Positions 6,200 through 21,071 of a stretch of DNA of 64,000 nt are shown here, one piece after another. Origin of the DNA: Lingula anatina. Its lineage: Eukaryota; Animalia; Brachiopoda. Position 1 is the stretch's first letter. Every line of letters begins with the position of its first letter. The DNA lies in contig CM120640.1 in NCBI GenBank assembly GCA_051362555.1, forward strand, positions 57,762,788 to 57,826,787. The letters are read 5' to 3'. The notes under the pieces are model-generated. The model worked only from the letters and a program-made list of their open reading frames with translations. It did not search any database and had not been told where the DNA came from. The translations under genes were made by a program, and so were the position numbers.

Positions 6200-6352
6200 T
6201 CACATCTTTGACTTGAAATATCTTTTGAATTCCTGCCGGGCTATGGCTCTCATATGGACCTCATCTGGACCATCAGCTATCCTTAATATTCTTGCCCACA
6301 TGAACATGGCTGCCAATGGAACATCAGAGTTCACTCCAGCCCCACCAAAAGC
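6200..6352 (-). CDS. ACAD10: ACAD10 distal alternative last exon (ends ...KSKM*)
   Basis: ttctag acceptor, 153 nt: [50 protein letters not shown]. Confidence 0.9.
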
Positions 6353-9300
6353 CTAGAACAGAAAACTTAAATCCTGACAGAAAGTTGAGCACATCAAATG
6401 GACGCCAAGAGGACAGGAAGAGTAAGATGCAGCAGAGAGTTACAGCTTTGATTTCAATAACTTCCTGAGTTCCCCCCTGGCTATAGAGCGTAAATGAACT
6501 TCATCAGGACCATCTGCCAATCTGAGTGTTCTTGCTGCAGCAAACATGGCAGACAGTGGAATGTCGGAATTGACCCCAGCACCTCCATGAGCCTATGGTT
6601 ATAATGCAACAAATGACAAAATGCAAAATGTACAAAGTGTAAGTTGCACAAATAGAAAGTTAAAAAAAAATGTAGACCTTCACAAACTGAAGCAAATATC
6701 CAAACAATACATAGAAAAGTGAGTACCAGCACGAGATGGTGATTATATTAGTTATAACAATAAGTTAGCATTTCCAATATAGTAACTCTACCTTGTGACA
6801 GTGTTTGCCTTTCTTGTAATGTATTGTCTTATTTTCTGTATTATTATTATTAGTGTAAGTTAACATTTACAGAACACATTTTTAATAACTTAAAGTAGCA
6901 AAAATTGTTTTCACCTGAATTGCTCTATCAATCACATTAAGTGCCATGTTAGGAGCTGCCACTTTTATCATTGCTATCTCTGGAGCAGCAACCTAGAGGC
7001 AGAGACAAATATAAAATTCAACTTTCAAAGTTTATGTTGAAGCACAATCGGTATTAACTCTATCAGAATCACTTTTAGACAAAACAAAATGAAGAATATA
7101 TTAAGCAAGATCAAACTTTGCATAAAGCTACACTATACATAAAATGATAAAATAAAACTCACTTTCAAAAACAGTTTCAGAATTAAGACAAATTACTTTT
7201 AAACTGTTACTTTCAAAAGATGCAAGCAGACATTATACATACATGACAACTCTTACAGCACCAGATGCTAGTTTAACACAGTGATAATTCTCAAGCATGA
7301 AATAATGCCCTGGTCTCCATCTAATACCTTATTTCCTACAGTGTCCATCATATGGGCAGCTTTGAGCACCAACAGTCTGGTCTGTTCTATCTCTATTCTA
7401 GACTTGGCAATGTCAGCTCTGATGGTCCCTTGATCAGCAAGAGGCCTACCAAAGGCAACACGGTTCTGAACCTACACAGAAAAGTGAATATATAAAGATA
7501 CTATTATTTTAACATACGTCAAAACAAACCTGCCATTCCCTATCAGACGAGATCAAAGTTTTCACATTTTTCTTTCACTATAAAAACAATTTTCTTGACT
7601 ATTTAGTTTAATTCATTCTTACATCTCCATAGGGATATTGCATTTTCCTTGAAAATTTCTTTTTAAAAATTAATAAATACATAAAGCAGTGGATTTTTTA
7701 TAGTAAAACTATATTTCAATTGCTCTTACTCTATCTAACATAAGATCCAAAGCTCTCTCAGCAGATCCTATCAGTCTCATGCAGTGGTGGATTCTTCCTG
7801 GGCCAAGTCTACCCTGGGCAATCTCAAAGCCTCTCCCTTCACCCAGCAGTAGATTACAAGCTGGCACTCGAACATTCTCAAACAACACTTCTGCATGGCC
7901 ATCTGTGAAAACAAAATAATAAATTTCCTTTAGTTTAGGTTTAAAATCTTTAACAACAGAACAGGGGCAACCTCCATGTTTACAAACAAAAAATAAATAA
8001 AACTGCTTATGAACTGTTGGTGGTAAATTTAATTATGGAACTCAAATTTGCACTTCAGCTCAAATTGTTTAATTCTAAATTATCACAATATCCTTTAAGA
8101 GGCTCTGAAAGTTAAGAAACACAAAAACATACGTGGTGCATCCTGGGATCCGAACACATTAAGAGGCCTCAGTATTTTCACCCCTGGGGCATCCATTGGC
8201 ACCAGGATCATACTCTGCTGTCTGTGCATTGGTGCCTCAAGGTCTGTCTTACCCATAAATATGGCCAATTTACAACGGGGATCCATTGCACCTTAATCAA
8301 TATATGAATGAGAAAACCCAAAATCTATATAATGTAAGACAACTCACATCATTACCCAATCACTTACAAGTTACCACCAAACAAAAAAAAAAAAAAAAAA
8401 AAAACAAAACAAAAAAAAAATGCAATTTATCACAATAAATTTAATGTGTGAAAAGATATCCTATTTGAAAATGGAAAATTCTTTTATGAAACAATGAAGT
8501 TTTACTCTTACCTGATGTCCACCACTTGTGTCCATTGATCACATATGAATCTCCATCTCTTCTAATGGAGGATTCAATATTAGTTGCATCAGATGATGCA
8601 ACCTAAACCATGAGAAAAACATTTATATAACAAATTCTAATCATGTATCAACTGAAGCCAGATCATTTTAAAGGAATAATAACTGTTTGCTTTGGCCAAA
8701 AAATGAATTTTCCTGGAGTAAACAACAATTTTCCCATACTTACCAATGGTTAACGAATCTGTTTCTACATTCAAAGTTAGTCCCTGTTTTTTTTTTTTCT
8801 AAAAAGTTTGGTTTTATGTTATAATCTCTTAAGAGATTATTACAGAGTATATCCATCTATGGAGGTCACATTAAGTTAATTATGAAAATTAATCTACAAT
8901 GATCAAAACTACTATGATCTAAATATCTTGTACCTCCATATCAATCAGACCTTATATAATATTTTGACAATATGATACTAAAGTTAAGATCTTGTGTCAG
9001 TTTCAAGTACTTTGTACCACTTAAAAAAGTATCTGCACCTCATTTCTTACTTTGTGGCATTTGAAGTCTAATGAAGGACACAACGGCATGAAGAATCTTT
9101 GAGAAGAATCTAATCTATTTTTACTTTTGTAACACAAAAAAGACCTATCCACCAATCAACTTCAAATTTATCAATGAATATTATATAAGACTTCTTGCCA
9201 ACCAAACATTACCTGTGGTTCAGTCATGGCAAAGCAAGACCTAATTGTTCCCTCCAGCAATGGAGTCAACCATTTCTGCTTTTGTTCCTCTGTTCCGTAA

Positions 9301-19600: not shown

Positions 19601-21071
19601 TGAACAGTAGATATGTGGATACACAGAGATCTTTTTCAGAGTCTCTGCAGAGAGCTTAAATGTGTAAACAACAAATACATTTACAGTCTAAGTAAATGAA
19701 CATTTTATTGAAATGGAGCAATGGAGATACTTTACAGTGTATATGAACTAAATATTGTAACATAGATGCTGCATTACAATTATTTAGATGCTGAGAGATA
19801 TTATGTGGACAGTGGCAATATATGCTTTACTCGTCTTTAGGGGTGCTGGTAATAGCAGTACCTTCTCTCTTCATGCATATCAAATATAATACACTGACCC
19901 CCTCTCATGCTACGTATATGCCTTTAACACCTTGAGCATTAGGAAGAGATGTTCTTGCATATATCGCTTGGGTAACTAACATGGCATTTATGGGTGACAG
20001 TGTATTATCTAACACATAATCCCAAACTGACTTCAATATGTTTTGAAAAATAAAAAAGTTTGCAGAAATATTGCAGCAATATTGTTGCAAACTGAAAGAT
20101 TGCAGCAACTAGTTTGGAGGATGTTGCAAAAAATAATTTACTGTTGGTAACTTGCAGCCATATTGCAGCAAAAAATTGCTGCAGATTTGCAAGAAAAAAT
20201 TGCAGTTTGCAGAAATATTGCAGCAGGCCTGACATTTTGCTATGGAAAATCTCACACTTACGTGACAACTTCACTTATTCATTAAAAACAAACAAAACAA
20301 CAGTTGATAAATGGAGAAACCCAAGTAAATCCTATACCTTGTCAGATAAACCTCTGTTGAACTCCTCAACATACTCCTTGAATGTCATCTCTCCTCGATC
20401 CAGTTTGGCCCAGCCACCTTGTTCTCCAAGACTAACTATGAACTCATTAACACTGTTTTTAGGAAGGTTGAGTGCAGCTTCAAAATCTAAAGAAAAATTT
20501 GACATTGCATGCTTATGATGTGTAACATGTAATTAAATTATGTTAAAAAAAAAAACTAAACAAATAAATCAAATCAAAAGCAGGCTGGAAAAAAAGCCAT
20601 ATGAAATACATTTTATCTTTCCTTGACACCTTTTAAACTTTTTGGAAAGAAAAAATTAGTTTTCCATAGAATTATAATTAAACTTAATTTTGTCATGTAG
20701 CATAAAAGCCTGTTGCTTGACAATGTTATTTGGTTTTGGGGTCTCACAGACTGAACCCTTACAGAGTTTGAAACAACATTTACATGTAAAATCTGGATAC
20801 TAATACATAAAATTACATTACATTATATAACGTACTGGATATTAAAAATAGGTAAATGGTATATACACCAGTACAAACCATTGAAAGCCTGGAATGGAGA
20901 TGGTAAAAGCACCCCTCCCATATCAAATATGACTGCTTTGGTAGGTGTAGTAGTAGAGCCATATCTCCTGGATCCTCTACCCTCACTGCACACTGATGTC
21001 GCTACAGCAGGGGAATGCTTCAATACATGACCAGAAAGGCTCTTCAATCTCATCTGGGCCAAACGCATCAT
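6200..21071 (-). CDS. ACAD10: Acyl-CoA dehydrogenase family member 10 (HAD + APH-like kinase + ACAD domains)
   Basis: Coding exons (approx.): 21071-20879, 20486-20338, 19563-19372, 19178-19020, 18475-18310 (6a) or 18024-17859 (6b), 17470-17376, 17012-16897, ~16569-16389, ~16198-16048, 15736-~15591, ~15207-15033, ~13898-13724, ~13407-13240, ~9762-9622, ~9349-9213, ~8602-8512, ~8291-8133, ~7902-7730, ~7471-7328, ~6992-6915, then 6592-6440 or 6352-6200. Motifs: [21 protein letters not shown] and FLDD; kinase GQSNPTY and [36 protein letters not shown] and ADGPDEVH. Confidence 0.95.
6440..6592 (-). CDS. ACAD10: ACAD10 proximal alternative last exon (ends ...KSKL*, canonical PTS1)
   Basis: catag acceptor, 153 nt, phase 0, open: [50 protein letters not shown]; 34/50 aa identical to the distal exon. 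Confidence 0.88.
9777..13045 (+). mobile_element. Helentron-associated (HINE/pearl-like) element with internal tandem repeats
   Basis: 5' end ACAAGGCAGCAAAGCTGTCAAATGTACAGAC; ~370-bp degenerate units then ~160-bp units (CCGATCA.GCTGATTTTCGAACTTGACCTG); GACG-type microsatellite; 3' hairpin TATGTACAGACACA-tc-TGTGTCTGTACATA followed by an A-run; no TSD seen. Confidence 0.75.
11372..11925. mobile_element. MITE with ~120-bp TIRs and 5-bp TSD, nested in the HINE-like element
   Basis: CAGGCCTACCCAACT... / ...AGTTGGGTAGGCCTG; AAAAT on both sides (11367-11371, 11926-11930). Confidence 0.9.
16668..16703. repeat. (CT)n microsatellite
   Basis: Direct reading. Confidence 0.9.
17859..18024 (-). CDS. ACAD10: ACAD10 mutually exclusive exon 6b
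   Basis: ttctag acceptor, 166 nt, GC donor (AAG|GCAAGT): [55 protein letters not shown]; same length and phase as 6a, 28/55 aa identical. Confidence 0.88.
18310..18475 (-). CDS. ACAD10: ACAD10 mutually exclusive exon 6a
   Basis: Rare GAG acceptor, 166 nt, GC donor (AAG|GCAAGT): [55 protein letters not shown]. Confidence 0.88.
20710..20776 (-). promoter_or_regulatory. Intronic element complementary to the exon 6a branch point/acceptor/5' end (candidate long-range RNA pairing)
   Basis: Inverted copy of 18440-18511; the 36 exonic nt give 34 Watson-Crick + 2 G-U pairs on the transcribed strand. The regulatory role is inferred. Confidence 0.7.

What the first reader, a model, noticed from the sequence alone, without database searches (positions are those of the whole stretch)
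6200..21071. One ACAD10 gene with modular duplicated exons that could encode both ACAD10-like and ACAD11-like enzymes
Seen: (i) an Arg/Ser-rich N-terminus resembling a mitochondrial presequence; (ii) two interchangeable HAD-kinase junction exons; (iii) two interchangeable last exons with different residues near the active site and SKL vs SKM ends; (iv) an antisense element bracketing the HAD exons; (v) skipping exons 3-6 removes 666 nt in frame (phase 1 to phase 1). Known: vertebrates use two genes, ACAD10 (HAD-containing, mainly mitochondrial) and ACAD11 (HAD-less, peroxisomal), both kinase-ACAD fusions acting on 4-hydroxyacyl-CoAs. Inference: this animal achieves a similar division of labour by coordinated splicing of one locus. 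The in-frame skip would also remove the first kinase helix, so it may not be the route used.
Basis: partly seen in the sequence, partly recalled or inferred. Interest (0 to 1): 0.9.

Follow-up and report, generated by a model that had tools for sequence, protein, structure and literature searches.

The report
Swappable active-site exon in invertebrate ACAD10
In this brachiopod the fatty-acid enzyme gene ACAD10 carries two old, intact copies of its last exon, as database records also show for many molluscs and a ribbon worm, so it can likely end either in the usual ACAD10-type active-site helix or in one resembling the peroxisomal enzyme ACAD11; the proposed skipping of its front domain was not seen in RNA reads.

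Summary
The anatomy is real. This is Lingula anatina ACAD10 (minus strand). It has two 166-nt copies of the HAD-kinase junction exon, two 153-nt copies of the last exon (SKL, SKM) and a unique ~75-nt inverted copy of the exon-5a acceptor in intron 1. Both exon pairs are ancient (synonymous sites near saturation), open, and in RefSeq isoforms.

The main result is conservation. A swapped last exon occurs in 14 of 17 other lophotrochozoan isoform sets and 0 of 6 outgroup sets. In 12 of 12 species inspected one copy has the ACAD10 tryptophan eight residues before the catalytic Asp and another lacks it, as ACAD11 does.

The 666-nt HAD skip is unsupported: 34 reads join E1-E2, no skip junction was listed, and it would delete a kinase helix that ACAD11 keeps. 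Exon 5a dominates; 5b is rare. Both tails are PTS1-like, so the last exon is probably not an organelle switch. The antisense element looks young and may be neutral.

Verdict: new member of a known kind (tandem duplicated-exon substitution). I found no paper on it. The scan noted this class in other genes, never ACAD10.

The parts
21626..21676 (-). E0, non-coding first exon (donor at 21626; upper limit is only the edge of the last bin with reads)
   Evidence: E0-E1 joint in 10 reads over four runs
20879..21089 (-). E1: ATG at 21071, presequence-like N-terminus, HAD motif I (D50)
   Evidence: E1-E2 joint 34 reads
20707..20776 (.). Intron-1 inverted copy of the E5a acceptor (last ~39 nt of intron 4 plus first 36 nt of E5a); partner arm 18440-18514
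20338..20486 (-). E2 (HAD)
19372..19563 (-). E3 (HAD)
19020..19178 (-). E4 (HAD)
18310..18475 (-). E5a: HAD last helix plus first kinase helix, GC donor, major form; out-of-frame ATG at 18336 starts RefSeq X5
   Evidence: E4-E5a 14 reads, E5a-E6 31 reads with GC-AG ends
17859..18024 (-). E5b: duplicate of E5a, GC donor, minor form
   Evidence: RefSeq X3 and X5; depth 0.64/0/1.58/0.24 with both flanking bins empty; profile score 42 bits vs 45 for E5a
15033..17470 (-). E6-E11, APH-type kinase (17470-17376, 17012-16897, 16569-16388, 16198-16048, 15736-15591, 15206-15033)
13725..13898 (-). E12: kinase end and kinase-ACAD linker
6915..13406 (-). E13-E20, ACAD domain (13406-13240, 9762-9622, 9350-9213, 8602-8512, 8291-8133, 7902-7730, 7471-7328, 6992-6915)
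6440..6592 (-). E21a: last exon, non-Trp (Ala1015/Thr1018) ACAD11-like motif, catalytic Asp1023, ends SKL
   Evidence: RefSeq X1, X3, X4, X5; read depth in all four runs
6200..6352 (-). E21b: last exon, Trp1015/Ile1018 ACAD10-type motif, ends SKM; lies inside the 3' UTR of E21a transcripts if these use the shared signal
   Evidence: RefSeq X2; junction itself not seen in my read tables
5320..5325 (-). Only AATAAA between 6600 and 4800 (ATTAAA at 5039 and 4961): likely shared poly(A) signal
   Evidence: reads reach the 5300-5850 bin

Best explanation
This is a single ACAD10 gene with two anciently duplicated, intact exon pairs, and choosing between the two last exons likely swaps the helix next to the catalytic Asp between an ACAD10-type (Trp) and an ACAD11-type (small residue plus Thr) version, which would tune the substrate range of the dehydrogenase domain rather than its destination. 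Shown: both last exons are open, under purifying selection and annotated; E21a is transcribed; the Trp/non-Trp pair recurs in molluscs and a nemertean. Inferred: the choice is between two 3' splice sites that share one poly(A) signal. E5a/E5b are kept exclusive by frame: including both gives a stop right after E5a (shown), and decay of that transcript is inferred. E5a is the major form (shown). The intron-1 inverted copy is probably a young inverted duplication that at most biases a minority of transcripts to E5b until intron 1 is spliced out (inferred). Most transcripts keep the presequence and HAD exons (shown in four runs); the product is predicted to be mitochondrial, and how the PTS1-like tail is used is unresolved.
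For: Exon models match RefSeq X1, X2, X3 except two substitutions. pS 0.77 and 0.70 against pN 0.36 and 0.21 for the E5 and E21 pairs. Homologous last-exon swap in 14 of 17 other lophotrochozoan isoform sets, 0 of 6 deuterostome/cnidarian sets. One Trp copy plus at least one non-Trp copy in 12 of 12 species whose copies were printed. Trp in 99 of the 120 best ACAD10 hits; mouse and human ACAD11 have Ile there. Among 85 of 150 family representatives with the C-terminal motif, a strict PTS1-like end is on 1 of 10 Trp and 47 of 75 non-Trp proteins (Fisher p=0.002, not phylogenetically independent). Without the last exon the ACAD domain groups with animal ACAD10s (SH-aLRT 94). Haliotis splits the two types over two genes, the non-Trp one with a short N-terminus lacking an obvious presequence. 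Rough E21a/upstream depth ratio 1.7 and 1.5 in two runs, 0.7 and 0.6 in two others.
Against: Two papers report comparable in vitro activity of mammalian ACAD10 and ACAD11 on the chain lengths tested and attribute the cellular preference to location (PMC11342911 section 9; PMC12440821 section 8), so the Trp switch may not alter chain length. I could not inspect coordinates, so contact of residue 1015 with the acyl pocket is untested. The E20-E21b junction was not among the 15 joints shown of 151; its use rests on RefSeq X2 and coarse depth. Non-Trp residues are varied (A, G, K, H, T, Q, S, M) and occur in single annotated proteins of some echinoderms, an amphibian and annelids, which also fits relaxed constraint. 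Relatives' isoforms are automated predictions.
Confidence: 0.65

Rival explanations
1. One reading: the intron-1 element pairs with the E5a acceptor, loops out E2-E4 and drives E1-to-E6 skipping, coordinated with the SKL exon, to give a HAD-less ACAD11-like enzyme.
For: The duplex is strong and unique, both differences in its exonic half are G-U compatible on the transcribed strand, and the skip is in frame.
Against: No E1-E6 joint listed in four runs against 34 E1-E2 reads (listing needs 3 reads in a run). None of the six Lingula cluster members is this product. The skip keeps the presequence and removes residues 269-286, which align to the first helix of mouse ACAD11 and fall within the 3dxp and 9o56 matches. 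The arms are ~87% identical while the exon pair is saturated, so the element is much younger than the pair unless co-evolved; one of its two exonic differences is a population variant.
Confidence: 0.05
2. One locus does supply a peroxisomal, HAD-less ACAD11-like enzyme, but by another route: an ATG near the end of E5a read into E5b (RefSeq X5, 824 aa, whole kinase, SKL) from a double-inclusion or internally started transcript, or an alternative 5' end (RefSeq X4, 916 aa).
For: X5 and X4 are in RefSeq, lack the presequence and end in E21a/SKL; X5 has no HAD match. A second database model ends exactly as E5a-E5b joining predicts. PTS1-like tails (loose pattern) on 50 of 54 lophotrochozoan rows against 2 of 18 outgroup rows. 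Haliotis gene 2 combines no obvious presequence with the non-Trp exon.
Against: No E5a-E5b joint listed and E5b is covered by only about 1-3 reads per run. The ATG context is weak. A double-inclusion transcript has a stop at codon 288 with many introns downstream, a typical decay target, and X5 may be only the longest ORF picked by the annotation. E5 duplication was seen in just 1 of 17 other sets.
Confidence: 0.15
3. The last-exon choice mainly tunes something other than substrate range: PTS1 strength (SKL vs SKM), tetramer contacts of the C-terminal helix, or 3' UTR length and expression.
For: The tails differ in each species; E21a transcripts would carry about 240 nt more UTR; mammalian paralogues behave alike in vitro.
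Against: The one feature shared by all 12 inspected pairs is Trp versus non-Trp, not the tail; strict PTS1-like ends are equally frequent on both types (24 of 33 and 15 of 21).
Confidence: 0.15

Closest known systems
Tandem duplicated exon substitution events (human catalogue, PMC9741552; passages read)
   Same: Homologous exons swapped in one gene, catalytic residues kept; 77 of 236 human events swap C-termini; convergent origin across phyla is documented.
   Different: ACAD10 does not occur in that paper's main text (0 hits); here two events sit in one gene and the C-terminal one carries the catalytic residue.
ACOX1 duplicated exon (PMC9741552 passage) and ACSL1/ACSL6 Phe/Tyr gate exons (PMC1543647 abstract)
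   Same: Fatty-acyl enzymes in which a mutually exclusive duplicated exon changes a residue proposed to shape substrate handling.
   Different: Those are internal exons in other folds; here it is the terminal exon of an ACAD domain, and no activity difference has been measured.
Mammalian ACAD10 and ACAD11 (PMC12440821, PMC11342911, bioRxiv 10.1101/2025.09.10.675409)
   Same: Kinase-ACAD fusion with kinase motifs, HCMR helix and catalytic Asp; HAD domain and presequence-like N-terminus as in ACAD10; E21a motif and PTS1-like tail as in ACAD11.
   Different: Mammals use two genes. Here an ACAD10 orthologue has a PTS1-like tail on both endings and alternates between the two motifs; a HAD-less product is annotated but not supported by my reads.
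Docking-site/selector RNA pairing in Dscam1-type exon clusters (recalled, no call)
   Same: Long-range intramolecular pairing touching an alternative exon.
   Different: One arm only, covering the acceptor of the major exon, no partner at E5b (-25 kcal/mol, background); conservation untested.

Membership tests
ACAD10 | HAD + APH kinase + ACAD domain order | tested here: met
   Pfam Hydrolase 45-226, APH 294-520, Acyl-CoA_dh N/M/1 649-1036
ACAD10 | Catalytic motifs: HAD Asp, kinase HGDF and DWE, HCMR helix, ACAD Asp | tested here: met
   positions 50, 464, 486, 901, 1023; Asp aligns to mouse ACAD11 D753
ACAD10 | Orthology to animal ACAD10 | tested here: met
   Best named hits are ACAD10s; ACAD domain without last exon groups with them, SH-aLRT 94, quick tree, no named ACAD11 in the tree
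ACAD10 | Mitochondrial import and internal cleavage | not testable with these tools
   Presequence-like composition; Arg..Tyr-Ser-Thr-like linker motif in many relatives; no experiment
ACAD11 | HAD-less kinase-ACAD product without presequence | tested here: inconclusive
   RefSeq X5 fits but no supporting joint was listed; the E1-E6 route keeps the presequence
ACAD11 | C-terminal PTS1 | tested here: met
   SKL on E21a, SKM on E21b by sequence; import not tested
ACAD11 | Orthology to vertebrate ACAD11 | tested here: not met
   About 770 bits to mouse ACAD11 against more than 1250 bits to vertebrate ACAD10s (different databases); gene sits in the ACAD10 clade
Tandem duplicated exon substitution | Adjacent homologous exons of equal phase, both open, under purifying selection | tested here: met
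Tandem duplicated exon substitution | Both alternatives spliced into mRNA | tested here: inconclusive
   E5a junctions seen; E5b only 1-3 exon-confined reads per run; E21a has depth, E21b junction not displayed; all four are in RefSeq models
Tandem duplicated exon substitution | Conservation in other lineages | tested here: met
   Last exon 14 of 17 sets; E5 1 of 17. One origin versus several unresolved
RNA-structure-controlled exon choice | Conserved pairing with compensatory changes, and competing partners | not testable with these tools
   No related genomes held; no reads over intron 1; no competing partner found

The most novel reading that the evidence does not exclude
Lophotrochozoans re-created the ACAD10/ACAD11 division of labour from the ACAD10 gene alone: a PTS1 tail was added, the last exon was duplicated (probably more than once) into Trp and non-Trp active-site versions, and presequence-less forms such as the E5a-ATG/E5b product supply the peroxisome; abalone did the same by whole-gene duplication. 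The Trp site would then be the substrate determinant that separates the two mammalian paralogues.
Probability: 0.2. Interest if true: 0.75.

Novelty: new member of a known kind. Interest (0 to 1): 0.5.

Why it matters
Why ACAD10 and ACAD11 handle different 4-hydroxy fatty acids in cells is open: recent papers ascribe it to location and leave long-chain specificity untested. Here natural isoform pairs, identical except for 50 residues, recur across three phyla and always contrast a Trp with a non-Trp eight residues before the catalytic Asp, the same contrast as between ACAD10 and ACAD11. That points to one residue and gives ready-made matched enzymes to assay. It also suggests that ACAD10 became dual-signal (presequence plus PTS1-like tail) in lophotrochozoans.

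Tried and rejected
No genome is held, so no search for a separate ACAD11 gene; the 64-kb window holds no further ACAD10/11-like exon. Homologue search with E5b alone found nothing. No indexed RNA holder was listed; nine raw-read runs were offered by species label and I laid five, each read at about 6 or 25 in 100. The whole-gene lay was swamped by repeats in intron 13. A kinase-only transcript ending after E12 was considered and dropped, because downstream exons have similar depth. The open frame at 9909-10109 is repeat-derived, not an exon. A dip over the 5' part of E5a in two runs was treated as sampling noise, since few reads reach the end of E4 there either. No special pairing around the two last-exon acceptors (-30 and -29 kcal/mol). 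No Rfam match in 5000-23000. A 43-column tree of last exons could not settle their origin: 9 changes, 2 forced by strong branches; the AU test did not reject one non-Trp clade, p=0.42, with the echinoid row left out of the group. The ESM Atlas gave ACAD11/IBR3/ACAD10 clusters without species-level taxa. Two papers were not held. No structure or complex job was sent, as neither returns contacts for residue 1015.
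Full report
Gene model. The region is one minus-strand gene: a non-coding first exon, then 21 coding positions, two of them in duplicate. The exon model reproduces the RefSeq proteins of Lingula anatina ACAD10 with two substitutions (N410Y, L620S): X1 = 5a+21a, X2 = 5a+21b, X3 = 5b+21a. 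Pfam gives HAD, APH kinase and ACAD domains, and the catalytic motifs are intact. A profile scan of all six frames of the window finds these exons and no other copy.

The exon pairs are old and intact. E5a/E5b are 166 nt each with GC donors; E21a/E21b are 153 nt each. Synonymous sites are at or near saturation (pS 0.77, 0.70) while pN is 0.36 and 0.21. Including both E5 copies gives a stop right after E5a; the intron between them is 285 nt, so frame and not steric clash would enforce exclusivity. No canonical poly(A) signal lies between E21a and E21b; the first AATAAA is at 5325, so the last-exon choice is probably between two acceptors on a shared 3' end.

RNA reads. Nine runs were listed by species label and five were laid, each in part. 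Over E0-E7 in four runs the joints were E0-E1 10, E1-E2 34, E2-E3 18, E3-E4 11 (plus 3 at a shifted cut), E4-E5a 14, E5a-E6 31 (GC-AG) and E6-E7 13. No joint with E5b and no E1-E6 joint reached the listing threshold of 3 reads in a run. E5b had mean depth 0.64, 0, 1.58 and 0.24 with empty flanking bins, about 1-3 spliced-looking reads per run. For the last exons only 551-nt bins were available: E21a depth relative to E19/E20 was about 1.7, 0.7, 0.6 and 1.5. This hints at sample-dependent use but is rough, and the E20-E21b junction was not among the 15 of 151 joints shown.

Relatives. I compared isoforms within 23 species-level sets drawn from 20 clusters, chosen from the 120 hits listed of 2098. 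A swap of the segment matching Lingula 997-end occurs in 14 of 17 lophotrochozoan sets (Lineus, Ruditapes, Dreissena, Physella, two Saccostrea, Aplysia, Mizuhopecten, three Mytilus, Biomphalaria, Magallana, Ylistrum); it was not seen in Haliotis, Patella or Ostrea. It occurs in 0 of 6 amphioxus, starfish and cnidarian sets (Nematostella has an unrelated tail variant). In all 12 species whose copies I printed, Lingula included, exactly one copy has Trp eight residues before the catalytic Asp and the others do not. Trp is the ACAD10 norm (99 of 120 hits); mouse and human ACAD11 have Ile there, mouse with Thr three residues on, as in E21a. Among wider family representatives (85 of 150 with the C-terminal motif; 65 dropped) strict PTS1-like ends go with non-Trp (47 of 75) and rarely with Trp (1 of 10); these rows are unnamed, include probable bacterial proteins and are not independent. 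The Lingula ACAD domain without its last exon groups with animal ACAD10s (46 of 56 chosen rows entered the tree), so the non-Trp exon looks like a derived return to the ACAD11/IBR3-type motif. Whether the duplication happened once is open: the short tree is unresolved, one non-Trp clade is not rejected, but fused gene models put the Trp copy first in Magallana, Biomphalaria and Mytilus while it is second in Lingula, which favours separate origins or rearrangement. E5 is duplicated only in Lineus among the 17 sets, and its two copies resemble each other (35/55) more than either Lingula copy (25-28), which suggests an independent event.

Targeting. PTS1-like tails are on 50 of 54 lophotrochozoan rows (39 by a strict pattern) and 2 of 18 outgroup rows (1 strict); the exceptions are three cephalopods and one truncated model. 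They are equally common on Trp and non-Trp exons, so the last exon is unlikely to be an organelle switch. A peroxisomal form needs loss of the presequence. RefSeq offers X4 (starts at a Met in E3) and X5 (starts at an out-of-frame ATG at 18336 in E5a and runs into E5b; HAD-less, kinase complete, SKL). I could not support either with junction reads. Haliotis has two genes, one Trp-type with a presequence-like start and one non-Trp with a short start.

The antisense element. It is an inverted copy of the E5a acceptor: 75 nt at 87%, unique in the window, far above the pairing with any other acceptor. In its exonic 36 nt it differs at two synonymous positions, both G-U compatible; in the intronic half there are two mismatches and two small gaps. 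In run X7 the exon carries the intron arm's base at one of the two positions, and a second variant there is also G-U compatible. This is mildly suggestive of kept pairing, but the numbers are tiny and equally fit a young neutral inversion, given at least about 3% exonic divergence between X7 and the window. The exon it would mask is the major one. The skip it was proposed to drive keeps the presequence and removes the first kinase helix, which mouse ACAD11 retains (alignment begins at residue 269).

Literature. Read: PMC11342911 (abstract, sections 6 and 9, passages), PMC12440821 (abstract, sections 7 and 8, passages), bioRxiv 10.1101/2025.09.10.675409 (abstract, section 6), PMC9741552 (passages), PMC1543647 (abstract). 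The first two report similar in vitro activity of ACAD10 and ACAD11 on the substrates tested, which counts against a strong chain-length effect of the Trp site. The preprint assigns ether-lipid kinase and phosphatase roles to the N-terminal domains, so E5 choice could bear on that activity (inference). Searches listed no paper on duplicated ACAD10 exons or invertebrate ACAD10 splicing; only the top listings were seen, subscription journals are missing, and no supplements were opened (the event list of PMC9741552 may sit in its supplement). The Dscam comparison, the reading of SKM as a PTS1 variant and the expectation of nonsense-mediated decay are recalled knowledge. Earlier scan notes show the same class in other genes and none for ACAD10.

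Verdict. Observation confirmed. The strongest reading is a conserved tandem duplicated-exon substitution at the ACAD active site, with a minor second one at the HAD-kinase junction. The idea of one gene covering both ACAD10 and ACAD11 roles survives at motif level, but the proposed skipping mechanism does not. New member of a known kind; interest 0.5.

Noticed in passing
window 18310 and 17859 (minus strand): Both E5 copies use a non-canonical GC donor; the E5a one is confirmed by 31 reads.
   Followed up: partly
window 13725-13898 (E12): The kinase-ACAD linker has an Arg..Tyr/Phe-Ser-Thr-like motif in many relatives, like the processing site reported for mammalian ACAD10. The window has Leu620 where RefSeq and the reads at 13763 give Ser.
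   Followed up: partly
P0036 vs P0154 (Ruditapes): A further duplicated exon, matching Lingula E10 (kinase DWE exon), and three last-exon copies.
   Followed up: no
P0034 and P0081 (Haliotis cracherodii): Two ACAD10 genes; the second has a short N-terminus, an altered HAD motif and the non-Trp last exon.
   Followed up: partly
P0176 and P0179 (Aplysia): A second, shorter Aplysia protein set also has two last-exon versions, both non-Trp.
   Followed up: no
window 19685-19850: One or two sense reads in intron 2 in run X1 only; could be an alternative first exon for RefSeq X4 or noise.
   Followed up: no
window 11371-11926 and 12344-12986: MITE-like element with ~120-nt inverted ends and a 161-nt tandem repeat in intron 13; both attract many repeat-derived reads.
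   Followed up: no
window 21345-21510: Small repeat with strand-switching reads in the first (5' UTR) intron.
   Followed up: no
window 28422-28781, 31788-32930, 48553-48948 (minus strand): At least three tandem EXPERA/EBP-family gene pieces.
   Followed up: no
window 1850-2113 (-), 54846-56889 (+), 60182-60457 (-), 38282-43918 (+): Myosin motor exon; Arm/Arm_3 exons (importin-alpha-like); Tudor exon; hAT, reverse transcriptase and gag fragments.
   Followed up: no
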